IMG/VR virus record: IMGVR_UViG_3300045592_000030
DNA: 64,000 nt
Strand: one strand, 5' to 3'
Source of the DNA: a virus
Shown here: positions 31,076 through 64,000 of the stretch, in pieces
Layout of the letters: the number at the start of each line of letters is the position of its first letter
Position numbering within the stretch: position 1 is the stretch's first letter
Made by a program: the position numbers and the translations under genes
The notes under the pieces: model-generated
The model's database searches: none
The model's input: the letters and a program-made list of their open reading frames with translations, nothing else
What the model was told of the DNA's origin: nothing

Positions 31076-31434
31076 ATAAATCAAGAGAAAATTTATAGAA
31101 AAAGTCGATTTTAGCCAAGATTTAACATTTCGTGGACGTTTCTACCTTCATAATAATAAATAATATATCCACATGCGCGTAAAGAAAACATTCATCAGCC
31201 AACATCGGCCGGGAAGATTGTTTCACACAGAAACTGAAAAGTAAACAACATCTCTACTGCAAGTATTGCTATGCTAAGGATGAAGTATTCAACTGCAATA
31301 CTCAATGTTCCACAATAGGGAGTTTCCAACTTACCACTGCTAAACTTCCAACTCACCACTGCTATAATAAGAAAAAGTATTAAAACCATGTAGAAATATT
31401 TTATTATTTGAATTATTCTTCTTATCTTTGCGAT

Positions 31435-32037
31435 ATGAAGAGTGCTAAAGTGTTAAAGATATTGCATGTATCGCGTCAAACGCTCGTGCAGTACGTGAAG
31501 AAGAAAGAGATAAGGGTCGTATCATTGCCAAACGGCACGTACGACTACAACGATGATGATGTATATCGCAAGGCTGGGCTTGCTTCAGAAAGAATGAACA
31601 TTGTCTATTCACGTGTATCTACGGCAAAACAAAAAAACGACCTTGATAATCAAGAAAAGACTTTGATTGACTATTGTAACAAGAATGGTGTTAAGGTAAG
31701 CAAGTCTTATAAGGATATTGCAAGCGGAATGAATTTTGACCGTAAGCAGTTCAAGCAACTACTTGGCGAGATACTGAATTTCAAAGTTGGCAGGTTATAC
31801 ATTACGTACAAAGATAGGCTTTCTCGCATCTCGTTCGATATGTTCAAGCGACTGTTCAGTGAATTTGGATGCGAGATAATAGCCATCAATGATACGGACG
31901 ATAAGGCAAACGAGACAGAGATATTCGAAGAAATCATTTCAATGCTTCATTGCTTCGCTATGCGGATGTATTCACGAAGGAGAAAAAGGAAACTCGAAAT
32001 AATGGAAGAGGATTTGAAAAATGAGATTAGTCTATAA
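31435..32037 (+). CDS. tnpA: IS607-type serine recombinase TnpA (MerR-like HTH + resolvase catalytic domain)
   Basis: MKSAKVLKILHVSRQTLVQYVKK... then VYSRVSTAKQKNDLDNQ. Start taken at ATG 31435, just after a TATCTTTG -7 box (31423-31430). The track start at 31408 is a TTG. Confidence 0.8.
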   Translation: MKSAKVLKILHVSRQTLVQYVKKKEIRVVSLPNGTYDYNDDDVYRKAGLASERMNIVYSRVSTAKQKNDLDNQEKTLIDYCNKNGVKVSKSYKDIASGMNFDRKQFKQLLGEILNFKVGRLYITYKDRLSRISFDMFKRLFSEFGCEIIAINDTDDKANETEIFEEIISMLHCFAMRMYSRRRKRKLEIMEEDLKNEISL

Positions 32038-51064: not shown

Positions 51065-51835
51065 ATGGAGTATCGTTATAATTACAAGTTCTTGCAGTCA
51101 TGGATGACCGAGAACAACATCAGCAACCGCCGTATACTGAACTGCATCGGTACACAGGACAACAAAAGTATGAACGCATGGAAGAATGGGGAACGGCCTA
51201 TGCCCGTTGAGACTATCCTGCGCGTGTGCAACACCTTTTCTATTCCGCTTGCTTGTTTCTTCTTCGATATGGACGATGACGCACCGCAACAGATCCGCCG
51301 TCCGCAATCGGAAGAGGAATACGAACCCATCGGTGGCTATCCCAAGGACAGCGAGCGGGGCAACCGGCAGAACGTGAACCCGGCACCACGTTTTCATCAG
51401 AAAACACACATGCCAGCGGAATATCCGTCAATGCCGGTTTCTTCAAAGGAAACGCCTGCGAAAGATGAAAAGTCGGACGATAACAACGCGCCCGACAATA
51501 GCAGTCAGACTTCTGCACCTACACCTATTCCTACACCGACCATCAATGAGAACGATACCGACAATATCGCTCTATTGAAAATGGAACTGAAATGTCAACA
51601 GGGAATCATGCGCATCAAGGACGAGGCGCGTGCCCACGAAACAGCCATGCGCACGGAGTTCATCAAGCGCAACGAAAGACTGCGCGATAAGCTCTACGAC
51701 ATTATCAACAGTCAGAACGAGACGATCAAGATGCTCAACGCACAACTGGCTCAAATAGAAAAGAACAAAGGGGGCTACCTTTCATTCGACAGCGACCTGG
51801 TATCGGACAACAAAGGGGAAAGCGCACAACGCTGA
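51065..51835 (+). CDS. XRE/CI-like HTH regulator with coiled-coil C-terminus
   Basis: N-terminal LQSWMTENNISNRRILNCIGTQDNKSMNAWKNGERPMPVETILRV is HTH_3-like. Divergent from the replication operon. Confidence 0.6.
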   Translation: MEYRYNYKFLQSWMTENNISNRRILNCIGTQDNKSMNAWKNGERPMPVETILRVCNTFSIPLACFFFDMDDDAPQQIRRPQSEEEYEPIGGYPKDSERGNRQNVNPAPRFHQKTHMPAEYPSMPVSSKETPAKDEKSDDNNAPDNSSQTSAPTPIPTPTINENDTDNIALLKMELKCQQGIMRIKDEARAHETAMRTEFIKRNERLRDKLYDIINSQNETIKMLNAQLAQIEKNKGGYLSFDSDLVSDNKGESAQR

Positions 51836-52070: not shown

Positions 52071-52922
52071 CTATTTTGTTTCTTTCTTTTCATTGCAGAA
52101 CTTCTCAAAATCGCGCTGCGCCTGCATATATTCAGCAACTGACAGAGGCTTCATATCCTCGCTATTGCAAGGATAGTCAAGCGAAATATAGAAGTTGTGG
52201 AAGTAATGGAAGAAGGTAGGTGTATTTCCTATACCTTTCTTCTTTCCTTTCTGATTGGCATCACTGCGTAAGTCTGCGCCCACGACTTCATAGAACCGCG
52301 ACGTTGGCACCACGGGCAAAGAAAGACGCATACGCTCGGCAGACAAAGCCTTCATCTGATTTTGCGTATATCGCTTTTTGCCATTGGGTTTTTCTACGAT
52401 CATTCCTGATGGCACAAGGCGCATCAGCGAATAGAACTTCTTACCAGAGACGACGGAGTGAATGGCTGAAGTAATTTCCTCGTCAGTGAGTCCTTTCACA
52501 TCAAGGCGCAACCACTTTGCCCAGCCCTGCAAGTCGAACTTACCTTTTATTTCATCGAAAGTCTTTCCGATACCACTATAAATCCTATCACGGGTATTGC
52601 TCGGATGCATCTTGTCAGACATAAAAGCCATGCCATCATAGACGCAAACATTAGGTACATAACAACCATTGCCATCATCGGTCATGTCCTTACGCCAAAC
52701 GCTGGTATTCACCTTGCGCTCGTCGGCAAAGATAAGATAGGACACGCCACCGGCAAAGAAGTTAGGGTCGCTGATCCACTCGGAAGCTCCCATCTTCTTG
52801 CAGTATTTCTGCGCCTCCAGTTCTGCACGATAGGCACTGTGATGGAACCGCATCATCTTAAAACCGCGTGTGCCACGATGCAAATCACCATCATGGAATT
52901 TATAATAATACCGCTGTTGCAT
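52071..52922 (-). CDS. Hypothetical protein
   Basis: Start moved to ATG 52922 (MQQRYYYKF) because the track start at 52949 lies inside the -7 box at 52947-52954. Confidence 0.6.
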   Translation of the reverse strand: MQQRYYYKFHDGDLHRGTRGFKMMRFHHSAYRAELEAQKYCKKMGASEWISDPNFFAGGVSYLIFADERKVNTSVWRKDMTDDGNGCYVPNVCVYDGMAFMSDKMHPSNTRDRIYSGIGKTFDEIKGKFDLQGWAKWLRLDVKGLTDEEITSAIHSVVSGKKFYSLMRLVPSGMIVEKPNGKKRYTQNQMKALSAERMRLSLPVVPTSRFYEVVGADLRSDANQKGKKKGIGNTPTFFHYFHNFYISLDYPCNSEDMKPLSVAEYMQAQRDFEKFCNEKKETK

Positions 52923-52946
52923 AGACTTAATAATCAATTTTCGGTG

Positions 52947-52977
52947 CAAAGATAAGCAAAAAAGTTAAATTGACAAA
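52947..52977 (-). promoter_or_regulatory. Host-type promoter TTTG-N19-TATCTTTG
   Basis: Minus strand match to the -33/-7 consensus. Confidence 0.5.
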
Positions 52978-53050
52978 TTGAATGGACATAATATCCAAAA
53001 AATTTTCGTACTTTTGCCAAAACATAACATTCAATATCTTAATCTTACGT

Positions 53051-53368
53051 ATGAGTAAAAAGAAAGACGAGGATAAAGCCCCTAAGTTAATGGATTTCGT
53101 TGCAGTACAAAAGGTGGATGCCTTTTGTCGGCAATATCAGCCGGTCAGCAAACAGGACTACAATACAGAAGTCTATAATGAGATACGGCTCCGCAACTTC
53201 TTCAAGGCGGATGTTTGCCCTTGCGGTGATCCGCTTACCATATATCTGTCTTTATTAGAGAAAGAAGGATTTGAAATGTCAGTCAGCTTACAGGACGAGC
53301 CTGTATTGCTCGTTAAAGAAAGATATGACCCATCCTCATGGCATCCGTCCTACCGCGACTGCGACTAA
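53051..53368 (+). CDS. Hypothetical small protein
   Basis: Start taken at ATG 53051 (MSKKKDEDK), downstream of a TACTTTTG -7 box at 53009-53016. Confidence 0.45.
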   Translation: MSKKKDEDKAPKLMDFVAVQKVDAFCRQYQPVSKQDYNTEVYNEIRLRNFFKADVCPCGDPLTIYLSLLEKEGFEMSVSLQDEPVLLVKERYDPSSWHPSYRDCD

Positions 53369-54006
53369 AGTTTCCTGATATATCGCTGCCATAGCTTGCA
53401 AACGAGGCACACAATGACCACAACGACAAAGAAAACAATTTCAATCATACCTATCCACCAAAAAAAATCATGCTTCTGCCTTTGTTTCTGCATTACTTTG
53501 CTCGCTGATATGGAGTCGGTCTTTGCCAGGATGCTATCAATATTCAAAGCTGCTACCGATACTTGACTGTCGTTTCGTTGCTGTTGATTGGCCGATGAGT
53601 GATTTTTCTGCGTGCTGTTAACTGCAAATCTGTCTTTCTTGTGCGTGCTGGTCTTATCTATCGTGCGCTTTATAATCTTACCGTTGCCATCAAGTTCTGT
53701 TACTTCATGGATATAGACACTATCCTGATCATGTATACTATCACGCAACTGCTCCCCTACCCTATTGCTGTCAGCACTGGCAACAACAACAGCCACATTG
53801 CCACTGTCCTTCACTGATACGGATTGCTTTGTCTGCTGCTGTAAGACATTCACGCTGCGCGTATTCTCCACCATCTTGCTACTCTTGCAACTTACAAACA
53901 AAGGAACTAACAAAACAAGTAAACAAGCAATGTTGTTTACTTTAATATTTGCAAACCTACTTGCAACCTTGCTCGCAAGGTAAATAAAAACATTATTAGC
54001 TTTCAT
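53365..54006 (-). CDS. Envelope protein with N-terminal lipoprotein-type signal and C-terminal TM anchor
   Basis: N-terminus ...IACLLVLLVPLFVSC-KSS and C-terminus FFWWIGMIEIVFFVVVVIVCLVC. Driven by a late-type promoter. Confidence 0.6.
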   Translation of the reverse strand: MKANNVFIYLASKVASRFANIKVNNIACLLVLLVPLFVSCKSSKMVENTRSVNVLQQQTKQSVSVKDSGNVAVVVASADSNRVGEQLRDSIHDQDSVYIHEVTELDGNGKIIKRTIDKTSTHKKDRFAVNSTQKNHSSANQQQRNDSQVSVAALNIDSILAKTDSISASKVMQKQRQKHDFFWWIGMIEIVFFVVVVIVCLVCKLWQRYIRKL

Positions 54007-54038
54007 AATTCTATACTTTGATAATTGTTTATTTACTC

Positions 54039-54072
54039 CAAAGATAAGAATGAAGAAAGATAACTTAGGGAC
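54039..54072 (-). promoter_or_regulatory. Late-type promoter TGTCCCTAA-N18-TATCTTTG
   Basis: Minus strand reads GTCCCTAA + 18 nt + TATCTTTG, 32 nt before ATG 54006. Confidence 0.6.
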
Positions 54073-54104
54073 AAACTTTCACACAAGCAAGCATAATATC
54101 AATA

Positions 54105-55412
54105 TTATTTGGACTTGAATATATAGAGAGCCGGATAATACTTCGTACCGAACATCTCCTTTATTTTCTTTAAGAACTTCTCATAGTCGGCCATGACCTT
54201 TGGCTCACTCATCTTCGCATGATCCTCCTGGCACATGCTGATGGCAAAGAGATGCCGCACCACACCCCTGTCATCTTTCACATTCCTTGCATCAACAAAT
54301 GTTGCACGACGAAATAACGGCTTCAATCCGCCACGACCATTGAAAGCTTTCACGACCGCCAGCCAATTGCGTCTATCCTGCTCATTCATTGTCAACGGCT
54401 CATTCTCAAACAAACTTTGCATGATGACACCTTGCGACTTCCCTTTGTTTTGCTTGTGCGCAATACCCAGGCGCGAGGCATGAAGCGTGAACTCTACATA
54501 GTCAGGAACTCCCCTACCCCGTCCGTTATTATACACGCAATGGTATTCAAAAGAAAACTCGCTGTTGTTTTCTAAGCATAGCCGGTCTAAGTCTTTCTTT
54601 GCCGGTTCAATCACCCTACGTACATAATCATTCCACCGAGGATAATCCTCTTTCGCAAGTTGATCGGTCTTTAAATCAAAAATAATATGTCCGGTAGTTT
54701 TTTTTAAGTCCACTGGTGTTACCTTAAAAGTCCTGGTATTCAACTGATACGATCGCATTTTTAGATAAACATAAAGTTTAGACGTTGCATCGTTATTACT
54801 ATATTTTGCAATACGGGCAAGATGCTCGACAAAGCCGTGATTCATGTCAAACACAGTAGAAACAACAGAACTGTTAATTTCCATCTCAATATAACCAGCC
54901 TTGCGCCCATCATTGCCCTCTATCGACGTATCATTACCATTATTATTACTATCAGGAAAAGAAATACGTGAAAACATCGGCATGATGTCATTATAGTGCA
55001 TGTACTTCGGATTTCCATGCCGGTCGTACATCAACTCTCCATCCCGGTTTTTCTTTTGTTCAAAGTGCTCAGTACGCACGTGAAGTTTATAAAGGTCTTT
55101 CAATGCAGCCTCTAAGCGACTATAAGCATAGACATCTACCAAATCACTCATCTTTAGACGTACCAACAACATGCCATTTTTCTGAAACGCGTCGTTTGGT
55201 ATTGCAGAATGCTGCGGGAACGTATCATCATGCGACTTACCCAAGAAATCGTTGACATAGCTTTGCATTTGCTTGCTTACCATAAACATTACGTCCTGCT
55301 GCATTTTGTTAAGAGTAACGCCCTGCTGCACATACGGAACGGGAGTCTTAATCCACCTCTCCTTATCAAGATCAGATACGGTAATCGGTAACTGCTTTTT
55401 ATCTTTATCCAT
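54105..55412 (-). CDS. Replication initiator-like protein (Rep), called from context
   Basis: 435-aa ORF whose start abuts four phased iterons. The N-terminal region is loosely Rep_3-like by eye. Confidence 0.5.
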   Translation of the reverse strand: MDKDKKQLPITVSDLDKERWIKTPVPYVQQGVTLNKMQQDVMFMVSKQMQSYVNDFLGKSHDDTFPQHSAIPNDAFQKNGMLLVRLKMSDLVDVYAYSRLEAALKDLYKLHVRTEHFEQKKNRDGELMYDRHGNPKYMHYNDIMPMFSRISFPDSNNNGNDTSIEGNDGRKAGYIEMEINSSVVSTVFDMNHGFVEHLARIAKYSNNDATSKLYVYLKMRSYQLNTRTFKVTPVDLKKTTGHIIFDLKTDQLAKEDYPRWNDYVRRVIEPAKKDLDRLCLENNSEFSFEYHCVYNNGRGRGVPDYVEFTLHASRLGIAHKQNKGKSQGVIMQSLFENEPLTMNEQDRRNWLAVVKAFNGRGGLKPLFRRATFVDARNVKDDRGVVRHLFAISMCQEDHAKMSEPKVMADYEKFLKKIKEMFGTKYYPALYIFKSK

Positions 55413-55430
55413 AGTCTTATTATATTAACG

Positions 55431-55515
55431 ACATAGCAATCTGTCGTAATCGACATAGCATGTTGTCGCAAAACACATAGCAACTTGTCGTAAACAACAT
55501 AGCACATTGTCGTAA
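55431..55515 (+). repeat. Iteron array L: 4 x ACATAGCA-N3-TGTCG(T/C)AA, 22-bp phasing
   Basis: Copies at 55431, 55453, 55475 and 55497, read directly. Confidence 0.9.
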
Positions 55516-55523
55516 AATATTTG

Positions 55524-55689
55524 CGTAACTTATTGATAATCAATAGAAACATCTCCAGTAATTATAACTATAATAATAATTCTATTATTTATCAAGTTTA
55601 CTTGGAAACTTGTAATTAATAGTATAGTATTTACTATACCAATTATAATTAAGCGGTTTTTGCGGATCGTAACTTATTGATAATCAATA
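55524..55689. promoter_or_regulatory. AT-rich origin core (putative DUE) bounded by two copies of CGTAACTTATTGATAATCAATA
   Basis: 22-mers at 55524-55545 and 55668-55689, each containing the palindrome TATTGATAATCAATA. The interval between them is very AT-rich. Confidence 0.55.
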
Positions 55690-55705
55690 CTAATCCTTTT
55701 TTCTT

Positions 55706-55790
55706 TTACGACAACCTGCTATGTTCTTTACGACAACCTGCTATGTTCTTTACGACAACCTGCTATGTTCTTTACGACAACCTGCATGTC
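55706..55790 (-). repeat. Iteron array R: 4 x reverse-complement iterons (TTACGACAACCTGCTATGT), 22-bp phasing
   Basis: Copies at 55706, 55728, 55750 and 55772. The last is degenerate. Confidence 0.9.
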
Positions 55791-55792
55791 AG

Positions 55793-56266
55793 TTAACCTT
55801 TTCTTTGCCGCTTCTCTTTCTTCTCCATTGCGTCGAGCCAATAGCGCGTTGCCTCGACGAGCATATCCTTTAGCGATACGTTGTTGCGAAGCTTGTACAT
55901 CATCATGCGCATGTAGATACTTTCCGGCATAGGCACCTGCACACCCTTCGTCGGTTCCGCCATCACCTTACGACTGGTAAGTATCTCTCCGCCATCAAAG
56001 GAACTGCCTAAGAACTCGCCCTTTTCTTCTTCCTTTTCAGGCGCATTGTGGGCATTCTCTTTTTCAGGTGCATTGTGGGCATTGCTGTTGTCGGCACCAT
56101 TGTTACCAGTGTTCCCTTTGCCATTGTTGGCATTGCTGCCAGAAATATTCTTTGCGGTTTCATCCACTGCTGGCTCATTAGCCACGCTTTCTAAACCGTT
56201 CTCCACCTGCTGCTCGGTCTTGCTGACAAGAGCCATTGCCTGAGCATCCTTGAAATTCTTTGCCAT
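55793..56266 (-). CDS. Putative ParG-like ribbon-helix-helix partition/centromere-binding protein
   Basis: 157 aa downstream of parA. C-terminus VQVPMPESIYMRMMMYKLRNNVSLKDMLVEATRYWL fits a strand-helix-helix. The N-terminus is low-complexity with an NAHNAPEKE duplication. Confidence 0.45.
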   Translation of the reverse strand: MAKNFKDAQAMALVSKTEQQVENGLESVANEPAVDETAKNISGSNANNGKGNTGNNGADNSNAHNAPEKENAHNAPEKEEEKGEFLGSSFDGGEILTSRKVMAEPTKGVQVPMPESIYMRMMMYKLRNNVSLKDMLVEATRYWLDAMEKKEKRQRKG

Positions 56267-56407
56267 ACTGATTGATTTTGAATTGTTATTTTCTAGTTTT
56301 TGAACGTTCCTATAATGATAGGTATGATGATAATTATCTTGCTTGAAGCGAAGCTAACAACGAAACAAACTTGCTTGCAAACAAGTAATCAAGTTTATTC
56401 CGGAGCG

Positions 56408-57226
56408 TTATTTGAAGATTTCTTTCTCCAAAGCCGCATAGTCAACAGCCGCGGGACTTTTCTGCGCGTAGTCGAAGATGTCCTGGCACTGGCTCTGCGC
56501 CTCGTTAACCTTTAAGGATCTATGAATAAAAGTCTTGGTAACATAATCACCATACTGCTGCGGAAGATAGTCGAGAAAGCCCTTAGTAATATTGCCTCGC
56601 ATATCCACCATGACCGGTACAATGCCTTTTATCTCCAAATCCTTGTTAACCGTCTTTTTGACGCGTGTCATCTCTACAAGGATAGAACCGAGTCCGTTAA
56701 CTGACAGGCCCTCCATTTGCACTGGAATGAGCAAACTGTCGGCCACGGCCATTGCATTGTACGTTGTACGGGACAGGGAAGGGGGGCAGTCGATCAAGAC
56801 ATATTCAAAGCTATCATTCACATAGCTCAGTCCGGCATCGGTGTGATCGTCGATGGAAGCACCGAAACAACCATACAACACCTGCATGGGCTGCATCTGA
56901 TGATTGATAACATTGTCAGCCTCTTGTAACAGCGGTGAAGCCGGAGCGTAGTAGATACCCTCCTGACCTCGATAGACAGGCACGCGACCCGTATTCTCTT
57001 CCAGTGGGGAATATTCCTTTAGCGCGTCCATCATCGTGCGCCCGTTACCGTCGAACCCGAACAGCGTAGAGAGATTACCCTGCGGGTCGAGGTCAATGCA
57101 AAGCACACGATACTTAGGATGGCGGAGCACAATCGCCTTGGCGAGGCTCTGCACGGTAGTAGTCTTACCGACACCACCTTTGTTGTTGACTACCGCAACA
57201 ACTTCCTTCAACTCATCATGTTTCAT
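56408..57226 (-). CDS. parA: ParA-family partition ATPase
   Basis: Deviant Walker A NNKGGVGKTTT. Start taken at ATG 57226 (MKHDELKEV). Confidence 0.8.
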   Translation of the reverse strand: MKHDELKEVVAVVNNKGGVGKTTTVQSLAKAIVLRHPKYRVLCIDLDPQGNLSTLFGFDGNGRTMMDALKEYSPLEENTGRVPVYRGQEGIYYAPASPLLQEADNVINHQMQPMQVLYGCFGASIDDHTDAGLSYVNDSFEYVLIDCPPSLSRTTYNAMAVADSLLIPVQMEGLSVNGLGSILVEMTRVKKTVNKDLEIKGIVPVMVDMRGNITKGFLDYLPQQYGDYVTKTFIHRSLKVNEAQSQCQDIFDYAQKSPAAVDYAALEKEIFK

Positions 57227-57632
57227 ATATTGAATGATTTTAACGTTATTATTTCTGTTGGCAAATATAATACATATTTTCAAAATAAACAAAACTTTCC
57301 GCGTTTATTTCTTGTTTTTATTGTTATTTTCTTTTTTTCATCTTTCTTTTATCCAAAGATACCATAATAAAAACATTGCTTGCTTGATAACTTGAAAACT
57401 TGTAACGTTGTAATATTGATATATTGAAAGAAAAAAAGGAATGAAAACAGAAATGAAAATTGGTAGAAATGGACGTAGAAATCAGTGAATTTTCAGCGGC
57501 CTATAATAAGGAACTTAGAAAAAAACGAAAATCGAAAATCGAAAAATAGGATAGGGGAGCGAGGAAACAAGCAAGAGGTTAAGAGCCTTTTTTGCCGCTC
57601 ATTGCTCCCCAAACAAGATATTCAAACCATCA

Positions 57633-58544
57633 TCATCGCCGGCTGTTCTCACTTTCCTCGTCCATCTTGCGGAGCATCTTGCGTGCCGCGACATTGGCCG
57701 CTGCCTGTCGGCGAAGTTCATTCAGGGGTGCGGGGTTCGCACTATTCGCCTGTTGTTCTTTCAACCGGGCATATTCTTCCTTTTCTTCCTCGTCGAAGGG
57801 GTGCATGACATCACGCGGAGCGCGGCGCGACGGGTCTATGTGATCCACACCGATACCACATGCACGCGGCAAAAAAATGCTGACATTCTCGCGGTCGTAG
57901 GCACCATGCCAGTCGAGCAATGGTTGCCAGTCGTCGGCATCCGTGGCAAACTCCGAGCGTTCGCGGATAGGAGTAAACCCGACGATATACTGCGCCATCC
58001 ATTGCATATAATAGTAGAGTCCTTGCAGGTCGATAAGGTTGCCATCACGCGCCGGACCGATAGGCTCCTTGCTAATCTCCACATCTTCCATACAACCGTA
58101 CAGCTCGAGATAAATGTTCAGTCCGGGACACTTTGCCACCAGGCGCGGCTCATCAAATTCTTCATCGTAAGTCTCGCCGATACTCTCCAGATATTCGCGC
58201 ACTGAAAGATGTTCGTATTCAGCGCGTGAAAGATTGCGCCATGCCACTAACCGCTCGCGGAGCCATTCCTCGCGCTTTTCACGGTTGCTTTCGCGCTTCA
58301 TTTTCTGCGTACTGGATGTTGCGAAACGATGCAACTTGCAAACAATATAAGGCCACTGTGTCATCACGCACACCTGTGCCATGTCCGTGCGTAGCGAGGC
58401 ACCGGCGACAACGATAAACGGCTGGTGCATCTTCATATTCGTGCGAAATGCCGGGATGTCCTGACGCGTGCACCCTCCCATAACATGAAGCTTTGAATTA
58501 TCATTCTTTCGATTATTGCTTGCGTTAATTCTTGAATTATCCAT
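57633..58544 (-). CDS. Hypothetical protein
   Basis: 303-aa ORF. Last gene of the early operon. Confidence 0.6.
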   Translation of the reverse strand: MDNSRINASNNRKNDNSKLHVMGGCTRQDIPAFRTNMKMHQPFIVVAGASLRTDMAQVCVMTQWPYIVCKLHRFATSSTQKMKRESNREKREEWLRERLVAWRNLSRAEYEHLSVREYLESIGETYDEEFDEPRLVAKCPGLNIYLELYGCMEDVEISKEPIGPARDGNLIDLQGLYYYMQWMAQYIVGFTPIRERSEFATDADDWQPLLDWHGAYDRENVSIFLPRACGIGVDHIDPSRRAPRDVMHPFDEEEKEEYARLKEQQANSANPAPLNELRRQAAANVAARKMLRKMDEESENSRR

Positions 58545-58588
58545 AGTTATCTAATTTTATTGTTTACTTGTTTACTTTGTTCGTTGCT

Positions 58589-58843
58589 TTATTTATTTGT
58601 AGTTTCCTTCTTCGCTTGCTCGATGATGCGCTCATAGTCACACACCCAGCGCAATGCCCGATTGAGTCGGGCATTGTCGTTGTCAAGTTCTGCAAGGATG
58701 CGCGGATTCGTTGTCATGCCCTTTATCTCATTGTTGCGTTTCATAGCCTGAATGAGGCTATCTGCCATGATTTCGAGTTGATCCAATGGCAGCACGGGCA
58801 ATGCTGCAATAGCTGCTATAACTTTCTCTGAAATGGTTTCCAT
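58589..58843 (-). CDS. Hypothetical small protein
   Basis: Start moved to ATG 58843 (METISEK), 8 nt after the leader element. The track start at 58933 overlaps the upstream gene. Confidence 0.5.
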   Translation of the reverse strand: METISEKVIAAIAALPVLPLDQLEIMADSLIQAMKRNNEIKGMTTNPRILAELDNDNARLNRALRWVCDYERIIEQAKKETTNK

Positions 58844-58851
58844 AATCTGTA

Positions 58852-58874
58852 ATTTTTGTGATGTTCTATAACAT
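58852..58874 (-). promoter_or_regulatory. Leader hairpin element copy a (GTTATAG + CAAAAAT box)
   Basis: Minus strand: ATGTTATAGAACATCACAAAAAT, then 8 nt, then ATG 58843. Confidence 0.6.
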
Positions 58875-58892
58875 ATTGAATACTGAAAATGA

Positions 58893-59366
58893 TTAATAAT
58901 CTTCTGCTCTGGCAATGGCTCCACCGGTGCCAAATATGGCAGCGATGACCATTATGCCAGGGAAGAAAACAATCGTACCGATGACAATTGCCGCAACAAT
59001 GAGGATAAAAAGCAAAGAGAATAAGCTATTATCCGGCTGCTGTTCCTGTTCGTCGGTTGTCCGGCTGACTGGTTTTTCTTTTCGCTTTCGCGGTTTTCGT
59101 GGCCGTGGCTGCGTTGTTTCCGTTGCCGCGGCTGATTGTTTGTCCGGCGTTGTTGGCGTGTCTGTTGCTTGATTATCGTCATCGTCGAACCATTCTATTT
59201 CCTCCGGATCATCAAAAAACATCGAGTAGATATGATCATCATCGCCATCTTTCTTAAAAGTCGTCCAGCCCTTACAGCCGCCTTCCGTTTCCACACAAAT
59301 AAACGTTGCGGTAAAGGAAGGACAGCCGGGATATTTTGGTGTGTATCTAAATCTTTTCTGTGCCAT
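58893..59366 (-). CDS. Acidic protein with C-terminal TM anchor
   Basis: 157 aa with DDPEEIEWFDDDDNQ and a C-terminal LFSLLFILIVAAIVIGTIVFFPGIMVIAAIF. Confidence 0.55.
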   Translation of the reverse strand: MAQKRFRYTPKYPGCPSFTATFICVETEGGCKGWTTFKKDGDDDHIYSMFFDDPEEIEWFDDDDNQATDTPTTPDKQSAAATETTQPRPRKPRKRKEKPVSRTTDEQEQQPDNSLFSLLFILIVAAIVIGTIVFFPGIMVIAAIFGTGGAIARAEDY

Positions 59367-59373
59367 TTCTCTG

Positions 59374-59405
59374 ATTTTTGCGAGCCTCTATAACGTAGGC
59401 CGTCG
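59374..59405 (-). promoter_or_regulatory. Leader hairpin element copy b
   Basis: Minus strand: CGACGGCCTACGTTATAGAGGCTCGCAAAAAT, then 7 nt, then ATG 59366. Confidence 0.6.
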
Positions 59406-59421
59406 GCGGTTAAACATGTGA

Positions 59422-60054
59422 TTAGTCGTTGTCGTTATCATTAACGAGCCCTATTGCCCAGATGGTAACGTCGTTGTCGTGGTACATCATAGAGTATTTG
59501 TTGTGTATTTCAATGCTGCTCTCATCGCCCTCGCTGCCAATGCACACGGTAACGAATTGTTCCGGCGTGCAAGACTTGACAGCATTCAGAAGCTTATCAC
59601 GCCATGCGGCTACACCTTCCAAAGCCTCCTGCAAGTCATCGTCTCCTTCATGGTCGCTACGGACACAATCAACAAGGTCGTTATACTCGTCGTTCACCTG
59701 CTCCTCGTCGGCTATCATGTAATAGTTAGGATCATCTTCGTAATCTTCCAACACGGACAGCCCGTTATCGTCCGGGTAATAACTGAAAACATTCCAGCTC
59801 TGCCATCCGTCGCGCCGCTTGAGTATTACCGTTGTAAGATTAAACTTACTTGCAAGTTCACGCACAGCTGCCATATTATCAAAGTTAATAACAGCGGGTA
59901 CAGAGGCACCACATGGAAATCCGCTGTTATCCGCCGACGCGTCCACCATTTCAGTACCAGGCATGCAGTCAGCAATAGCCTGCAATGTGTCCCAACCTTG
60001 AGCAATGTTGCTCTTGATATTCTCTAAAGTCTGATTATCTATAACGTTTGTCAT
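59422..60054 (-). CDS. Highly acidic protein
   Basis: 210 aa with long Asp/Glu runs (EDYEDDPNYYMIADEEQVNDEYNDLVD..., C-terminal NDNDND). Confidence 0.6.
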   Translation of the reverse strand: MTNVIDNQTLENIKSNIAQGWDTLQAIADCMPGTEMVDASADNSGFPCGASVPAVINFDNMAAVRELASKFNLTTVILKRRDGWQSWNVFSYYPDDNGLSVLEDYEDDPNYYMIADEEQVNDEYNDLVDCVRSDHEGDDDLQEALEGVAAWRDKLLNAVKSCTPEQFVTVCIGSEGDESSIEIHNKYSMMYHDNDVTIWAIGLVNDNDND

Positions 60055-60065
60055 ATTCGTATGTG

Positions 60066-60093
60066 ATTTTTGCGAGCCCCTATAACGGGGCTC
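60066..60093 (-). promoter_or_regulatory. Leader hairpin element copy c
   Basis: Minus strand: GAGCCCC-GTTATA-GGGGCTC-GCAAAAAT, then 11 nt, then ATG 60054. Confidence 0.65.
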
Positions 60094-60128
60094 TATGTGA
60101 ATAATATGTGAATGAATTAAGAATGAAT

Positions 60129-60560
60129 TTATTTTTTATAGAAATCTGCTCTCGTATATGAGCCGCATGTACAGCCCTTAATTCCACAAAAGTAATTTTC
60201 TAATCTTTTTTTCTGATTATCAGATAGATAATTTTCTATCCATTCCGATGAGCTTATCAGACCTCTTTCTACATCATCGAAGGCGTTATAAGCTTTTTGA
60301 GATACAATTACGTAAGTTTCTTTCGAATTATGGAACCCCCCACTTGCAAAAATCTTGTAAGTCTTCTTCTCTTTTAAATTTGAAAATGCGTCGTTACCGA
60401 TGAAGACGGCATCTTCTAATGTACCTCCACTTTCGTCACAATCAGAAATTATCTGGTCAATAAACTCGTCAAATGTTGCATTGGCATCTTTTTTATTGTA
60501 TTCGCTCTCTGTAAAGTCAATTGAGTTAATCAATTGTTCTTTTCTAATAATAGTTTTCAT
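60129..60560 (-). CDS. Hypothetical protein
   Basis: 143-aa ORF. Confidence 0.55.
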   Translation of the reverse strand: MKTIIRKEQLINSIDFTESEYNKKDANATFDEFIDQIISDCDESGGTLEDAVFIGNDAFSNLKEKKTYKIFASGGFHNSKETYVIVSQKAYNAFDDVERGLISSSEWIENYLSDNQKKRLENYFCGIKGCTCGSYTRADFYKK

Positions 60561-60586
60561 AATGATATGATTTTGAATGTTATTAT

Positions 60587-60874
60587 TTACTTGTTATGAA
60601 CTTCAATGAAGTTAATATCGCTTGCATTGATGATAGTCGTCACGAAATGAACATCCGAGGGGAATATCTGGATAAATCTAAAAGGCTCGTTAATGATATA
60701 CTGGAATGTCCCGTTAACGCGGTCAATCTTAATATCACGCGGCTCACCCCGTAAAGAAATGCGGACGAAATCGACATCCGGTTTTGTTGCCATCTTATCG
60801 AAAACGTACTTAATTGCTTCTATTGTCATAGTGTTATTTGTTTTGTGCCAACCTTGCGGTGGCGGGTTCAACAT
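60587..60874 (-). CDS. Hypothetical small protein
   Basis: 95-aa ORF. An internal Met at 60829 is an alternative start. Confidence 0.5.
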   Translation of the reverse strand: MLNPPPQGWHKTNNTMTIEAIKYVFDKMATKPDVDFVRISLRGEPRDIKIDRVNGTFQYIINEPFRFIQIFPSDVHFVTTIINASDINFIEVHNK

Positions 60875-60902
60875 GTAAATTATCTCTTACTTAATTACAC
60901 TG

Positions 60903-60934
60903 CAAAGATACGAAGATTATTTGAAAATACCAAA
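60903..60934 (-). promoter_or_regulatory. Host-type promoter TTTG-N20-TATCTTTG
   Basis: Minus strand match. Divergent partner of the + promoter at 60972. Confidence 0.5.
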
Positions 60935-60971
60935 TATTTTAGCGATTATTTTTGAGAAAAACCAAAAATAT

Positions 60972-61002
60972 TTTGTTATCCAACAAAAACACATTATCTT
61001 TG
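60972..61002 (+). promoter_or_regulatory. Host-type promoter TTTG-N19-TATCTTTG
   Basis: Plus strand match upstream of the HTH gene at 61048. Confidence 0.5.
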
Positions 61003-61047
61003 CAGCCGTAAACAATACATCCACATTAATATATATAATATATAGAC

Positions 61048-61419
61048 ATGCAAAAAGTCGATTTAGCAACGTTGTGCGCCCGGTATGGGTACAACAATCA
61101 AACGGAGGTAGCAAAGGCCGTAGGCATCACGCAACAGGCCGTAAACTATCTATTTAACAACAGTGATAAAATAGGATTGCAGAAGTTGCGCGAGCTTTGC
61201 GACGGCATCGGCTGCAAAGATATGCGGGAAGCATTTACCGACGCGGAAGGCGTGCCCTATACCGGTGCACCTGGTGAGTTAAGCAACAACCGCACATCCG
61301 CCGATCCGGACGAAGTATCAGCAAAACAACTGCTCACCATCAAAGATGATGAAGTTCTTTGTCCTCATTGCGGACAAAAAATGAAGCTGGCTCGCCGGTG
61401 GATTGCAACGGTAGAATAA
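61048..61419 (+). CDS. Cro/XRE-like HTH regulator with C-terminal CxxC element
   Basis: LATLCARYGYNNQTEVAKAVGITQQAVNYLFN is HTH-like. CPHCGQKM near the C-terminus. Confidence 0.6.
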   Translation: MQKVDLATLCARYGYNNQTEVAKAVGITQQAVNYLFNNSDKIGLQKLRELCDGIGCKDMREAFTDAEGVPYTGAPGELSNNRTSADPDEVSAKQLLTIKDDEVLCPHCGQKMKLARRWIATVE

Positions 61420-61433
61420 TAATCAGGACACGC

Positions 61434-61477
61434 ACTAAAAAAGCGGAGGCAAACAATTTGCCTCCGCTTTTTTAGTG
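61434..61477. terminator. Bidirectional rho-independent terminator
   Basis: CACTAAAAAAGCGGAGGC-loop-GCCTCCGCTTTTTTAGTG. Perfect palindromic arms with A/T runs on both sides. Confidence 0.8.
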
Positions 61478-61528
61478 CCCCGTGGACGAACAAAAAGCAA
61501 AACACGTCCACGGCTGCATGATCGTTAT

Positions 61529-61672
61529 TTATGCATACATAAACACAAAATACGCGGTGTATATAGACACGATGAAGATAACGCCCTGCACAAACTTTTC
61601 ATGTTGCCGGATGAAGTTCTCTATCTTACGCGCCGTGCGCATCTGGGTGAGGTACATTGCATTTACTTTCAT
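61529..61672 (-). CDS. Possible tail-anchored small membrane peptide (47 aa)
   Basis: Hand translation: MKVNAMYLTQMRTARKIENFIRQHEKFVQGVIFIVSIYTAYFVFMYA. Confidence 0.3.
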   Translation of the reverse strand: MKVNAMYLTQMRTARKIENFIRQHEKFVQGVIFIVSIYTAYFVFMYA

Positions 61673-61745
61673 AGCTACAAAGATTTAATGAGTGAAACGA
61701 TATTCAGGAAATGATAGGGTAGGGGATAGCCCTACCCCGAAATGC

Positions 61746-62693
61746 TTACAACTGAATGCCCAACTCCAAATAACGAAGTGAGTAAATAGCATTATGAGTG
61801 AGTTGCCGCTGCCATGCCCCGGCGGACGGACTCCAGCGGAATCCGTTATGCTTTAACCGGTCGCGGACATCGGGCGCGGGTTTATCATCAAACAACAGGC
61901 GGAGCCGGTTGTCGACATAGTCCTGCACCACTTTTCCACCGGCAAACGTCGTTACCTTTGGCTCACTTTGCGCGGTTTCTTCCATCTTTACCGAGTATTT
62001 TAGTGCAAGTTCAGGAAGTCGGTACCACTTATGGCGGCGAGTAAAAACGGGCTTCTTATGCTTACTGTTATATTCCTCCACAAGGGCCATTGCTTTTTCC
62101 ACAATCGACATCTTGCCATTGCGAGCTTTGCGCTCCACGAATCCATACAGATTACTCACGAAAAGCGAACGATAGCCCCATCCGTTCTTTTCGTCGATGT
62201 CGCAGATAGCTGCCACTTCATCGAATATTTTCTTACGTGCCTCCTGCCATTCTTCATCGTCGCGCTGCTCCTGGCTTTTGCCATTCTCCACACATCGCAA
62301 GATTGCACCGACAGCCTTTTTGCGCCACTCGGCAAAGTCCCGACACGCACCATCGTAACTGGCAATCGCTTTTTTATTACGTGCCACGGGGAAACGCGCC
62401 GGACCCGTAACAGCGGCGGATGCAATACGCGACTCACGAGCAAACAGGTCGCGCACCTTCGCGCGGAACTGCTCACGATAGCGGTCTTTATCCTCGTCGG
62501 TAGCTGTCTGTATCTCGCACAGATCATCAGCGAGTGAATGTGTGTATGAATCAAGTTCCACACGTCCGGCGCGTTCAGGGTCGAAGCTGCTCCAGTAGTG
62601 TGCATCTTGTGAGTCTTTCTTCAACGATGATAATGTTTCCTCTGCTTTGCCAGTGGCAACAACATAATCCAAATGCTTACTAAGTCTTTCCAT
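61746..62693 (-). CDS. Hypothetical protein, DUF3560-like C-terminus
   Basis: 315 aa. C-terminal LKHNGFRWSPSAGAWQRQL resembles a motif I associate with DUF3560 proteins of plasmids and phages (from memory, unverified). Confidence 0.55.
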   Translation of the reverse strand: MERLSKHLDYVVATGKAEETLSSLKKDSQDAHYWSSFDPERAGRVELDSYTHSLADDLCEIQTATDEDKDRYREQFRAKVRDLFARESRIASAAVTGPARFPVARNKKAIASYDGACRDFAEWRKKAVGAILRCVENGKSQEQRDDEEWQEARKKIFDEVAAICDIDEKNGWGYRSLFVSNLYGFVERKARNGKMSIVEKAMALVEEYNSKHKKPVFTRRHKWYRLPELALKYSVKMEETAQSEPKVTTFAGGKVVQDYVDNRLRLLFDDKPAPDVRDRLKHNGFRWSPSAGAWQRQLTHNAIYSLRYLELGIQL

Positions 62694-62701
62694 AATTTGT
62701 A

Positions 62702-62731
62702 ATTTTTGCGCGGCCCTATAATAGGGGCCGC
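62702..62731 (-). promoter_or_regulatory. Leader hairpin element copy d (loop variant TATTATAG)
   Basis: Minus strand: GCGGCCCCTATTATAGGGCCGC-GCAAAAAT, then 8 nt, then ATG 62693. Confidence 0.6.
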
Positions 62732-62755
62732 TGGTGAAACATATTCTTTGCTTGT

Positions 62756-63310: not shown

Positions 63311-63447
63311 ATCTTTCTTTTTGTTGTGTCCGGCGGACGAACCGCCGGACGGGTTAAACTTAATCTTTACTTAGTGCCACGATTGCAGCAAGACAGGCAA
63401 AGCACAGCAGGCAGAGGCCTAACTGGATAACGACGGGTGCAAGCATA

Positions 63448-63630: not shown

Positions 63631-63638
63631 AATCCAAA

Positions 63639-63667: not shown

Positions 63668-63696
63668 TGGTTTAACTTACTTTCTTAATTCTGTTG

Positions 63697-63999: not shown

Positions 64000-64000
64000 C

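What the first reader, a model, noticed from the sequence alone, without database searches (positions are those of the whole stretch)
54105..57292. Iteron-type plasmid origin with Rep-like initiator and ParA/RHH pair inside a phage genome (phage-plasmid lifestyle?)
Seen in the sequence:
- Four 19-bp iterons, ACATAGCA-N3-TGTCG(T/C)AA, sit at 55431, 55453, 55475 and 55497. The phasing is exactly 22 bp, and they lie directly upstream of the 435-aa ORF start at 55412.
- Four reverse-complement copies (TTACGACAACCTGCTATGT) sit at 55706, 55728, 55750 and 55772, again at 22-bp phasing. The last copy is degenerate.
- Between the two arrays lie about 190 bp of very AT-rich DNA. It is bounded by two copies of CGTAACTTATTGATAATCAATA (55524 and 55668), each containing the palindrome TATTGATAATCAATA.
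- Next door are a 157-aa protein with a ribbon-helix-helix-like C-terminus and a ParA with a deviant Walker A (KGGVGKTT).
- A near-identical 12-mer, G(G/A)AAACTTGTAA, occurs in the origin core (55604) and upstream of parA (57393).

Established knowledge: phased iterons flanking an AT-rich unwinding element beside the initiator gene, together with a parA/small-RHH pair, is the layout of low-copy theta plasmids. P1/N15/SSU5-type phage-plasmids share it.

Inference: this phage may be maintained as an episomal plasmid prophage. No phage-type integrase or excisionase is visible in the window; the only recombinase is the IS607 TnpA.
Basis: partly seen in the sequence, partly recalled or inferred. 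Interest (0 to 1): 0.7.

Follow-up and report, generated by a model that had tools for sequence, protein, structure and literature searches.

The report
Plasmid-style maintenance cassette in gut phage
An 83.5-kb tailed phage of gut Prevotella-like bacteria (Segatella) has no integrase but carries the same replication-and-partition cassette as plasmids of Segatella copri, so it probably persists in cells as a plasmid, a lifestyle barely documented in this bacterial phylum.

Summary
Four 19-bp iterons at 22-bp phase sit directly upstream of the 435-aa ORF. An inverted array (three identical copies plus one degenerate) lies 190 bp away, across DNA of 19-26% GC. That DNA is bounded by two copies of a 22-bp box.

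- **Initiator:** the ORF is a tandem winged-helix protein of the Rep_3/RepE/pi class.
- **Comparative support:** in related phages the iteron sequence changes together with the Rep DNA-binding domains.
- **Partition genes:** next door are a deviant-Walker-A ParA and a small ParG-like protein. Its ribbon-helix-helix fold is consistent but not significant.
- **New here:** seven TTG boxes at exact 8-bp phase lie upstream of parA, a candidate centromere/operator.
- **Plasmid homology:** ParA, small ORF, iteron origin and Rep are syntenic with the replicon of a Segatella copri DSM 18205 plasmid (ParA 45% identical, Rep about 23%).
- **Genome:** near-identical contigs of about 83.5 kb from other samples are circular permutations without host flanks. 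No integrase hit appears anywhere in the genome; the only recombinase is the IS607-type TnpA.

The phage-plasmid reading is the best explanation, but no lysogen was found. This is a new member of a known kind, in an under-represented phylum.

The parts
54105..55412 (-). rep: 435-aa iteron-binding initiator. It has tandem winged-helix domains (WH1 about residues 60-230, WH2 about 233-311) and a C-terminal domain of unknown family (about residues 325-435).
   Evidence: Pfam Rep3_C scores 21.6 bits (cut-off 21.1) and Rep3_N 20.0 bits (cut-off 22.4). A 60-sequence family profile hits R6K pi 2nra_C at E=7.5e-8. Of those 60 relatives, 29 hit Rep3_C and 16 hit Rep3_N. The AF2 model has top Foldseek hits to RepE 2z9o (3.8e-4), RctB and RepE54. 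tblastn finds Segatella/Prevotella plasmid 'RepB family' initiators.
55431..55515 (.). Rep-proximal iteron array: 4 x 19 bp (ACATAGCA-N3-TGTCGYAA) at 22-bp phase, 19 bp upstream of the rep ATG. Probably also the rep operator.
   Evidence: The array is conserved in position, while its sequence changes with Rep in L006, L008, L002, L005 and L025.
55524..55545 (.). Conserved boundary box CGTAACTTATTGATAATCAATA. Candidate site for a host factor such as a DNA-bending protein.
   Evidence: Direct repeat D3. The core GTAACYNWYTGA is present in every related phage origin examined and in one of the two Segatella plasmid origins examined (NZ_CP137558.1); the other, NZ_CP085934.1, has only a similar box read by eye. 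Shuffles of the 64-kb window give 0.19 matches. The fit to the IHF consensus is my own reading, not a test.
55546..55667 (.). AT-rich core, the presumed DNA-unwinding element. It holds three 8-bp-phased CAAG/CTTG boxes at 55594-55617.
   Evidence: GC is 19-26%. A similar core occurs in L006, L008 and L025.
55668..55689 (.). Second copy of the boundary box.
55706..55790 (.). Distal iteron array in inverted orientation: 3 identical copies plus 1 copy with a 1-nt deletion, at 22-bp phase.
55793..56266 (-). 157-aa ParG-like partition adaptor. It has a conserved N-terminal helix (MAKNFK..AQ..LALV.KTEQQ), a disordered repeat linker, and a C-terminal strand-helix-helix (residues about 107-155).
   Evidence: Alignments. 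AF2 gives H5-29, a disordered stretch, then H115-128 and H132-155. The top two PDB profile hits are CopG-family RHH proteins, but at E=0.4 and 0.64. There is no Pfam hit. The position immediately after parA is conserved in all relatives and in the S. copri plasmid.
56408..57229 (-). parA: 273-aa partition ATPase with deviant Walker A (KGGVGKTT) and no N-terminal HTH domain (type Ib-like).
   Evidence: AAA_31 3.7e-36 and CbiA 1.4e-17. PHROG 164 'ParA-like partition protein' 2.3e-49. The best plasmid matches are the ParAs of Segatella plasmids and large extrachromosomal elements, at 41-46% identity.
57262..57293 (-). parA promoter of Bacteroidota type: -33 TTTG at 57293-57290, 20-nt spacer, -7 TAtaTTTG at 57269-57262.
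   Evidence: Read from the sequence and conserved in L006 and L008. The consensus TTTG/TAnnTTTG comes from established knowledge of Bacteroides promoters. Function was not tested.
57376..57426 (.). Candidate centromere/operator: seven TTG boxes at exact 8-bp phase (CTTGATAA CTTGAAAA CTTGTAAC GTTGTAAT ATTGATAT ATTGAAAG ...).
   Evidence: This is the only array of at least 5 such boxes in the window; 300 shuffles gave none. A 7-box array occurs at the same place in L006, L008, L009 and L025. Phages with a different small protein (L002) have a different 8-bp-phased array there, 13 x TGATGAAA/TCATCAAA (L005 shows a comparable 6-box array).

Best explanation
The interval 54.1-57.4 kb is the plasmid-type maintenance cassette of an integrase-less tailed phage of about 83.5 kb, probably infecting Segatella (Prevotellaceae).

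**Replication.** Rep monomers are tandem winged-helix proteins of the RepE/pi class. They bind the 19-bp iterons, with two 8-bp half-sites in successive major grooves. The 22-bp phasing puts them about two helical turns apart, so they sit on one face of the DNA. Two inverted four-copy arrays flank a 190-bp AT-rich element. Loading both arrays, helped by a factor bound at the conserved GTAACTTATTGA boxes, melts that element. A helicase then enters, either host DnaB or the phage's own 1167-aa DUF5906 NTPase. The conserved C-terminal domain of Rep probably recruits it. The Rep-proximal array ends 19 bp before the rep start codon, so occupancy should also auto-repress rep. Pairing between arrays could limit copy number.

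**Partition.** The type Ib-like ParA and the small ParG-like adaptor segregate the copies, using the seven 8-bp-phased TTG boxes upstream of parA as centromere and operator.

**Consequence.** The phage can persist as a low-copy plasmid prophage.

**Shown:** the repeats, the protein families, the synteny with a real plasmid, the co-variation, and the absence of an integrase.

**Inferred:** all binding events, helicase recruitment, auto-repression, and the lifestyle itself.

The confidence given (0.6) is for the whole statement including the plasmid-prophage lifestyle. For the narrower claim that this is a plasmid-type replicon and partition cassette, I would put it at about 0.9.
For: - **Origin anatomy:** confirmed, and far beyond chance.
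- **Rep class:** Rep3_C is above the Pfam cut-off. The family profile hits pi protein at 7.5e-8. RepE, RctB and RepE54 are the top Foldseek hits.
- **Conserved architecture, changing sequence:**
  - The layout is 4+4 inverted arrays at 22-bp phase (about 5+4 in L008) around a central core that is AT-rich in most relatives.
  - It is kept in relatives whose Rep is 84%, 71% and 42% identical.
  - The iteron sequence differs in the 71% and 42% relatives.
- **Cassette swap in L008:**
  - The flanks are 88-92% identical in DNA.
  - The iterons and Rep residues 1-270 are replaced (40-70% aa identity).
  - Residues 271-435 stay 97-100% identical.
  - This looks like a swap of specificity or incompatibility type.
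- **Plasmid homology:**
  - S. copri DSM 18205 plasmid NZ_CP085934.1 has the same order as the phage cassette.
  - That order is ParA (45.5% identical), a 99-aa RHH-like ORF, a 372-bp origin, then Rep.
  - Its origin has seven 22-bp-phased iterons plus two inverted copies beyond an AT-rich stretch.
  - A second Segatella plasmid shares the phasing and the box.
- **Centromere-like array:** unique in the window, conserved in relatives, and different where the small protein differs.
- **Phage identity:** terminase, head protease, tape measure and holin are present.
- **Genome:**
  - Two contigs of 83,530 and 83,716 bp are at least 99.9% identical to the window.
  - They start 32.6 kb apart on the same circle.
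  - Window plus flanks sum to 81.4 kb, and the remaining ~2.1 kb fits the unseen parts of two partially seen genes.
  - There are no host flanks and no integrase Pfam hit.
- **IS mobility:** a 1943-bp IS607-type element occupies at least 4 sites in the phage population. This suggests long intracellular residence.
- **Regulators:** divergently transcribed HTH proteins are present.
Against: - No lysogen or plasmid-state record was found. Rep and TerL have no relatives in 185,579 GTDB species genomes. TerL has none in PLSDB.
- The circularly permuted contigs would also arise from virion DNA of a virulent phage.
- The phage encodes much of its own replisome (clamp, exonuclease, primase-like proteins, a DUF5906 NTPase). 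Rep and the iterons could therefore simply be its lytic origin, as the O protein and ori are for lambda.
- GC skew shows no polarity switch at the origin.
- The RHH fold of the adaptor is not significant.
- No addiction module was identified; this was not searched exhaustively.
- Rep3_N is just below its Pfam cut-off, and the Rep model is only moderate (pLDDT 64.7).
Confidence: 0.6

Rival explanations
1. The phage is virulent, or maintained only in a carrier state. Rep and the iterons are its only origin and serve lytic replication, having been captured from a Segatella plasmid. ParA and the small protein position or segregate replicating genomes during prolonged, non-lysogenic carriage, or are a recently acquired passenger.
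For: - The phage has its own replisome genes.
- No lysogen was found in genomes or PLSDB.
- Permuted, host-free contigs are equally expected from virions.
- There is only one iteron origin in the genome.
Against: - A complete ParA, adaptor and centromere-like set is conserved across relatives down to 42% Rep identity, and the array differs where the adaptor differs. That is hard to explain without segregation of a stably inherited replicon.
- An IS element is mobile within the population.
- Divergent HTH regulators are present.
- The cassette is homologous to a real plasmid replicon.
Confidence: 0.27
2. The phage is an integrative temperate phage. Its integrase is either unseen or is the IS607-type serine recombinase TnpA, and the ParA/Rep genes are accessory.
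For: TnpA (31408..32037) has a Resolvase domain. About 2.1 kb of the genome was not read directly.
Against: - The unread 2.1 kb corresponds to the missing parts of two genes of 656 and 641 aa, seen only in part, that have no Pfam hit on record.
- No contig shows host flanks.
- TnpA overlaps TnpB in a 1943-bp unit that sits at different sites in different samples. This is IS behaviour, not that of a fixed phage integration module.
- No tyrosine or large serine recombinase was found in the ORFs scanned.
Confidence: 0.04
3. The repeats are not an origin. They would instead be a regulatory or packaging (pac/cos-like) repeat region that happens to lie next to a winged-helix DNA-binding protein.
For: No experiment demonstrates initiation here, and GC skew is uninformative.
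Against: - Rep belongs to the RepE/pi initiator class.
- The same layout with 22-bp-phased iterons lies next to the annotated replication initiators of two cultured Segatella plasmids.
- The terminase genes lie 45 kb away.
Confidence: 0.02

Closest known systems
Basic replicon of Segatella copri DSM 18205 plasmid unnamed2 (NZ_CP085934.1, 58.9 kb), and other Segatella plasmids and large extrachromosomal elements (NZ_CP137558.1, NZ_CP137560.1)
   Same: - Same gene order: ParA, small RHH-like ORF, origin of about 370 bp, Rep.
- ParA is 41-46% identical and Rep 23-26% identical.
- Iterons are phased at 22 bp, with inverted copies on the far side of an AT-rich stretch.
- A GTAACTTATTGA-type box occurs in NZ_CP137558.1, and a similar one in NZ_CP085934.1.
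   Different: - Those are plasmids without phage genes; TerL has no PLSDB hit.
- The iteron sequences differ.
- The plasmid has 7+2 (or 5 plus dispersed) iterons rather than a symmetric 4+4.
- The phage Rep has a different C-terminal domain. Some relatives carry DnaA_N there.
Phage-plasmids P1, SSU5 and N15 (Enterobacteria)
   Same: These are tailed temperate phages kept as low-copy extrachromosomal prophages by a plasmid-type replicon plus a ParA-based partition system. P1 RepA is an iteron-binding initiator. This rests on established knowledge.
   Different: - No sequence relationship was detected; Rep has no tblastn hit in 50,697 phage records.
- P1, SSU5 and N15 use type Ia ParA with large HTH ParB/SopB proteins.
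- P1 has a separate lytic replicon (repL) and a control array (incA). Only one iteron locus exists here.
- N15 is linear and has a protelomerase; no such signature was detected in the ORFs scanned here.
- The host phylum differs.
F plasmid RepE / R6K pi / pPS10 RepA iteron initiators (Pfam Rep_3)
   Same: Tandem WH1-WH2 fold and 19-22-bp iterons at about 22-bp phase next to an AT-rich element. The initiator gene is adjacent, with iterons in its promoter region (plus established knowledge).
   Different: - Sequence similarity is marginal for the single protein.
- There is an extra C-terminal domain of about 110 aa.
- Two full inverted arrays flank the AT-rich element symmetrically, instead of one direct array beside it.
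- No canonical DnaA box (TTATCCACA) was noticed by eye.
Type Ib partition systems: ParF/ParG of TP228 and delta/omega of pSM19035
   Same: - A small Walker-type ParA without an HTH domain.
- A small adaptor with a flexible N-terminal tail and a C-terminal ribbon-helix-helix.
- A centromere/operator of short phased repeats upstream of parA. From memory, TP228 parH uses 4-bp boxes with 4-bp spacers, giving an 8-bp period.
   Different: - No detectable sequence homology of the adaptor to ParG or omega.
- The RHH fold is not significant.
- Binding was not tested.
Mycobacteriophages with parABS in place of the integration cassette (e.g. RedRock; from memory, Dedrick et al. 2016)
   Same: Temperate siphoviruses that lack an integrase, carry a partition system, and are maintained extrachromosomally.
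   Different: Those use ParA/ParB with parS and have no Rep_3/iteron replicon. The hosts and phages are unrelated.
crAssphage (Carjivirus communis), proposed as a phage-plasmid (PMC10983915)
   Same: It is the only phage-plasmid claim for a Bacteroidales phage that my two literature searches found.
   Different: It is a podovirus-like Crassvirales phage. The claim rests on two RepL genes and predicted origins. The paper has no occurrence of 'iteron', and it mentions ParA/partition only when describing P1. It is unrelated to this phage.

Membership tests
Rep_3 / RepE-pi class iteron-binding initiators | Tandem winged-helix domains WH1 + WH2 (Pfam PF01051 + PF21205) | tested here: met
   Rep3_C scores 21.6 bits, above its 21.1 cut-off. 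Rep3_N scores 20.0 bits, below its 22.4 cut-off. A 60-member family profile hits R6K pi at E=7.5e-8. 29/60 and 16/60 relatives hit the two domains. Foldseek top hits are RepE 2z9o (3.8e-4), RctB and RepE54. The model is only moderate (pLDDT 64.7).
Rep_3 / RepE-pi class iteron-binding initiators | Cognate directly repeated iterons of about 17-22 bp, phased at about 22 bp, next to the rep gene and an AT-rich element | tested here: met
   The iteron sequence co-varies with the Rep DNA-binding region across relatives.
Rep_3 / RepE-pi class iteron-binding initiators | Rep binds the iterons and initiates theta replication | not testable with these tools
   This needs EMSA or footprinting and a replication assay.
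Type Ib (ParF/ParG-like) plasmid partition system | Small ParA ATPase with deviant Walker A and no N-terminal DNA-binding domain | tested here: met
   KGGVGKTT lies at residues 17-24 of a 273-aa protein. AAA_31 3.7e-36. NCBIfam ParA_partition 1.4e-22, below that equivalog's cut-off.
Type Ib (ParF/ParG-like) plasmid partition system | Small centromere-binding adaptor with a ribbon-helix-helix fold, encoded just downstream of parA | tested here: inconclusive
   Gene position and size fit. AF2 gives an extended segment followed by two helices at the C-terminus. The top two PDB profile hits are CopG-family RHH proteins, but only at E=0.4 and 0.64. There is no Pfam hit, and Foldseek is uninformative.
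Type Ib (ParF/ParG-like) plasmid partition system | Centromere of short phased repeats upstream of parA, bound by the adaptor | tested here: inconclusive
   Seven TTG boxes at 8-bp phase are unique in the window, conserved in relatives, and different where the adaptor differs. Binding was not tested.
Phage-plasmids (sensu Pfeifer et al. 2021) | Complete phage structural, packaging and lysis gene set | tested here: met
   Terminase, head protease, virion protein and tape measure. Holin.
Phage-plasmids (sensu Pfeifer et al. 2021) | Plasmid-type replication and/or partition genes | tested here: met
Phage-plasmids (sensu Pfeifer et al. 2021) | No integration module in the complete genome | tested here: met
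   Window ORFs were scanned. The 17.4 kb outside the window has no recombinase Pfam hit. The circle closes at about 83.5 kb. The only recombinase belongs to a mobile IS.
Phage-plasmids (sensu Pfeifer et al. 2021) | Observed as an autonomous replicon in a lysogenic host | tested here: not met
   No relative was found in GTDB species genomes with Rep or TerL or in PLSDB. This is absence of evidence in limited collections, not evidence against.

The most novel reading that the evidence does not exclude
This would be the first well-supported family of long-tailed phage-plasmids in Bacteroidota. Its replicon and partition cassette belong to the same family as the plasmids and large extrachromosomal elements of the Segatella copri complex. 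Phage and resident plasmids or elements could then compete through iteron-based incompatibility. The observed swaps of iterons together with the Rep DNA-binding domains, with the C-terminal domain held constant, would be escape from that incompatibility. The symmetric 4+4 inverted-array origin would be a distinct geometry for bidirectional helicase loading.
Probability: 0.45. Interest if true: 0.7.

Novelty: new member of a known kind. Interest (0 to 1): 0.55.

Why it matters
Phage-plasmids are well documented mainly in Enterobacteria and Firmicutes. For Bacteroidales, the dominant gut order, the only claim my literature searches found is the debated crAssphage case.

- **Lifestyle:** a gut Segatella phage found in many metagenome samples that shares a maintenance cassette with Segatella plasmids would show that episomal lysogeny exists in this phylum. 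It would also help explain persistent phage carriage without integration.
- **Host link:** the cassette ties the phage to a genus that is hard to study.
- **Tools:** it offers a compact, testable replicon and partition module (about 3.4 kb) for building Segatella/Prevotella vectors.
- **Evolution:** the natural swaps of iterons plus DNA-binding domains give a ready-made system for studying initiator specificity and incompatibility.

Tried and rejected
- **Nucleotide similarity:** the 3.5-kb region has no match in the phage or plasmid collections.
- **Rep against phage records:** tblastn finds nothing.
- **Isolate or MAG genomes:**
  - Searches with Rep and with TerL found nothing.
  - Plasmid carriage could therefore not be shown.
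- **TerL against PLSDB:** no match.
- **TerL against phages:** only 30% identity, to an uncultured faecal phage and to Microcystis phages.
- **Rep profile against PDB:**
  - A profile of 7 close Rep sequences found nothing.
  - Only the 60-sequence profile reached pi protein.
- **Rep C-terminal domain as a diverged DnaA_N domain:**
  - The idea arose because about 500-aa relatives carry DnaA_N there.
  - hhalign gives 2% probability and a PDB profile search gives nothing meaningful.
  - I rejected this as a claim and keep it only as a positional analogy.
- **RHH assignment:** Pfam on C-terminal fragments and Foldseek gave no support.
- **RNA-based copy control:** Rfam gave no credible hit.
- **GC skew as origin evidence:** there is no switch at the origin.
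- **Sigma-70 promoter scan:** not meaningful for a Bacteroidota host.
- **Origin-core TTG boxes as a second binding site for the adaptor:** not supported by co-variation, because the L002 core boxes do not resemble the L002 parA-upstream boxes.
- **NCBI assembly GCA_000987605.1:**
  - It holds a 66-kb relative.
  - I could not find what kind of assembly it is.

Full report
**1. The observation**

- **Proximal array:** four copies of ACATAGCA-N3-TGTCG(T/C)AA start at 55431, 55453, 55475 and 55497, at exactly 22-bp spacing. The last ends at 55515, and the array begins 19 bp from the rep ATG at 55412.
- **Distal array:** three identical reverse-complement copies start at 55706, 55728 and 55750. 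A fourth at 55772 has lost one base.
- **Chance:** allowing three mismatches, the pattern hits eight times in 64 kb, seven of them here. Shuffles give a mean of 0.82 and never eight.
- **Uniqueness:** no other full iteron exists in the remaining 17.4 kb of the genome; only one 3-mismatch, chance-level match.
- **Core:** the 190 bp between the arrays is 19-26% GC. It is bounded by two direct copies of CGTAACTTATTGATAATCAATA at 55524 and 55668.
- **12-mer:** present at 55604 and at 57394, one base off the stated position.

**2. The proteins**

*Rep (54105..55412, minus strand)*
- Pfam Rep3_C (WH2) scores 21.6 bits, above its 21.1 cut-off. Rep3_N (WH1) scores 20.0 bits, just below 22.4.
- Close homologues are rare: seven clusters in 5.8 billion proteins.
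- An exhaustive profile search finds a wider family of 299 representatives.
- Of 60 aligned members, 29 hit Rep3_C and 16 hit Rep3_N. Eight carry a C-terminal DnaA_N domain.
- The 60-member profile hits the R6K pi protein at E=7.5e-8 over WH2.
- An AlphaFold model (pLDDT 64.7) has RepE, RctB and RepE54 as its best PDB matches.
- The C-terminal domain of about 110 aa in the window protein has no detectable relative.

*ParA (56408..57229)*
- It is a deviant-Walker-A ATPase without an HTH domain.

*The 157-aa protein*
- It has a conserved N-terminal helix, a disordered linker with a variable number of NAHNAPEKE repeats, and a conserved C-terminal extended-helix-helix segment.
- The top two PDB profile hits are CopG-family ribbon-helix-helix proteins, but only at E=0.4 and 0.64.
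- Pfam and Foldseek give nothing.
- The ParG-like reading is therefore consistent with the data but not proven.

**3. Comparative evidence for the origin**

The cassette ParA, small ORF, intergenic region of about 370 bp, Rep is conserved in every relative recovered.

| Locus | Rep identity to window | Iteron type | Arrays |
|---|---|---|---|
| L006 | 84% | same as window | 4+4 inverted |
| L025 | not measured (identified via its small adaptor protein, P0187) | same as window | 4+4 inverted |
| L008 | 71% | different (about AGTATAGYA-N3-TYCWCKAC) | about 5+4 |
| L002 / L005 | 42% | TGTTACCAAYCCTTCGTAAAA | 4+4 |

All arrays are at 22-bp phase and inverted around a central core.

L008 is the most informative case:
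- Its flanks are 88-92% identical to the window in DNA.
- The origin and rep codons 1-270 are replaced. Protein identity there is 40-70%, against 97-100% for residues 271-435.
- One window-type iteron survives at the outer edge of its origin.

So the iterons and the DNA-binding domains travel together, while the C-terminal domain is held constant. This is the pattern expected of an initiator with its cognate sites and a conserved protein partner.

**4. Link to real plasmids**

- The only annotated relatives of Rep are replication initiators of Segatella/Prevotella plasmids, at 19-26% identity.
- The best ParA matches, at 41-46% identity, fall mostly in the same records.
- S. copri DSM 18205 plasmid NZ_CP085934.1 has this order:
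  - ParA;
  - a 99-aa ORF with an RHH-like C-terminus;
  - a 372-bp origin, with seven 22-bp-phased iterons next to rep and two inverted copies beyond an AT-rich stretch;
  - Rep.
- Plasmid NZ_CP137558.1 has five 22-bp-phased iterons plus dispersed inverted copies.
- The core of the boundary box, GTAACYNWYTGA, occurs in every phage origin examined and in the NZ_CP137558.1 origin. NZ_CP085934.1 has only a similar box, read by eye.
  - Its conservation across Reps only about 25% identical points to a host factor rather than to Rep.
  - Its reverse complement, TATCAATAAGTTA, fits the E. coli IHF consensus. That is my reading only.
- These plasmids belong to the extrachromosomal elements described for the S. 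copri complex (PMC10635906).

**5. Candidate centromere**

- Upstream of parA, at 57376-57426, TTG recurs seven times at exact 8-bp spacing.
- This is the only array of at least five such boxes in the window, and none occurred in 300 shuffles.
- A seven-box array occupies the same position in L006, L008, L009 and L025.
- L002, whose small protein is only 23% identical, has instead thirteen 8-bp-phased TGATGAAA/TCATCAAA boxes there; L005 shows a comparable 6-box array.
- A Bacteroidota-type promoter lies between the array and ATG 57229: TTTG, 20 nt, TAtaTTTG at 57293-57262 on the minus strand. This argues against the TTG start at 57292.
- The origin core also holds three similar 8-bp-phased boxes at 55594-55617. 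These do not co-vary with the adaptor in L002, so I do not assign them to it.

**6. Context and lifestyle**

- **Phage genes:** terminase, head protease, tape measure, sliding clamp, exonuclease, primase-like proteins, a DUF5906 NTPase, ThyX and a D12 methylase. An Mfa2/FimA-like ORF was also noted.
- **Distance from known phages:** best TerL identity is 30%.
- **Whole genome:**
  - Contigs of 83,530 and 83,716 bp from two JGI samples are at least 99.9% identical to window 52756-64000. They begin 32.6 kb apart on the same sequence, so they are circular permutations.
  - Another locus extends 8.1 kb beyond window position 1.
  - Window plus flanks total 81.4 kb. The missing 2.1 kb matches the unseen parts of two adjacent genes (656 and 641 aa) seen only in part.
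  - The genome therefore closes at about 83.5 kb, without host DNA.
  - No integrase Pfam hit appears anywhere.
- **IS element:** the only recombinase is the TnpA of a 1943-bp IS607-type element. It occupies at least four different sites in this phage population, one within the last codons of rep.
- **Regulators:** two HTH proteins are transcribed divergently from the main gene direction.
- **What is missing:** no lysogen or isolate-borne copy was found. GC skew is uninformative.

**7. Verdict**

The region is a plasmid-type replicon and partition cassette, homologous to that of Segatella plasmids, inside a complete integrase-less phage. I hold that with high confidence.

That the phage lives as a plasmid prophage is the best explanation, at about 0.6. 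The main rival is a virulent or carrier-state phage that uses the same origin for lytic replication.

It works like P1 or SSU5-type phage-plasmids but is unrelated to them. My two literature searches turned up no comparable case in Bacteroidota apart from the RepL-based crAssphage proposal. I file it as a new member of a known kind, with an unusual symmetric two-array origin.

Noticed in passing
window 31363-33305; L020-L024: A 1943-bp IS607-type element (TnpA plus TnpB) with an identical TnpB sits at four or more different sites in near-identical copies of this phage from other samples. One insertion lies within the last codons of rep, making Rep 442 aa.
   Followed up: partly
L008:6905-7919 versus window 54878-55800: The origin and the first 270 codons of rep are replaced by a different specificity type, while the flanks are 88-92% identical. 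A single window-type iteron remains at L008:6917.
   Followed up: yes
Rep family (P0047, P0049, P0059, P0063, P0066, P0067, P0082, P0083): Relatives of Rep of about 500 aa end in a Pfam DnaA_N domain, the helicase-binding domain I of DnaA. The window Rep has an unrelated domain at the same position; hhalign is negative.
   Followed up: partly
window 20000-26000: A low-GC island (about 33% GC against 44-50% elsewhere) with small ORFs of unknown function.
   Followed up: no
window 55990-56130 (linker of the 157-aa protein): The copy number of an NAHNAPEKE peptide repeat and of Asn/Gly-rich tracts varies between strains. Proteins of 123-167 aa share the same N- and C-termini.
   Followed up: no
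L006:3142-3258: Seven tandem 12-bp repeats (AAAGRTAACTAT) lie between the CAA/TTG-box array and the parA promoter in the 84%-Rep relative. They are absent from the window.
   Followed up: no
L002/L003 1-11311 versus window: In the 42%-Rep relatives the ParA-RHH-origin-Rep cassette lies shortly after the tape-measure gene, with one 384-aa gene between. In the window it lies about 14 kb from it, behind the replication genes. The cassette has moved between genome positions.
   Followed up: no
window 34115-35068 (minus strand): An ORF matching the Bacteroidales fimbrial families Mfa2 (above the Pfam cut-off) and FimA (weak, below cut-off) lies next to the tape-measure gene. It may be a tail-associated or host-mimicking lipoprotein.
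   Followed up: no
window 61048-61419 (+) and 51065-51835 (+): Two HTH regulators are encoded opposite to the otherwise almost uniformly minus-strand genes. They are candidate lysogeny or early-switch regulators.
   Followed up: partly
window 45661-49164, 43816-44967, 49191-49955, 29999-30976, 61746-62693: The phage encodes a sliding clamp, an epsilon-like exonuclease, two primase-like proteins and an 1167-aa DUF5906 NTPase. No recognisable DNA polymerase was identified.
   Followed up: partly
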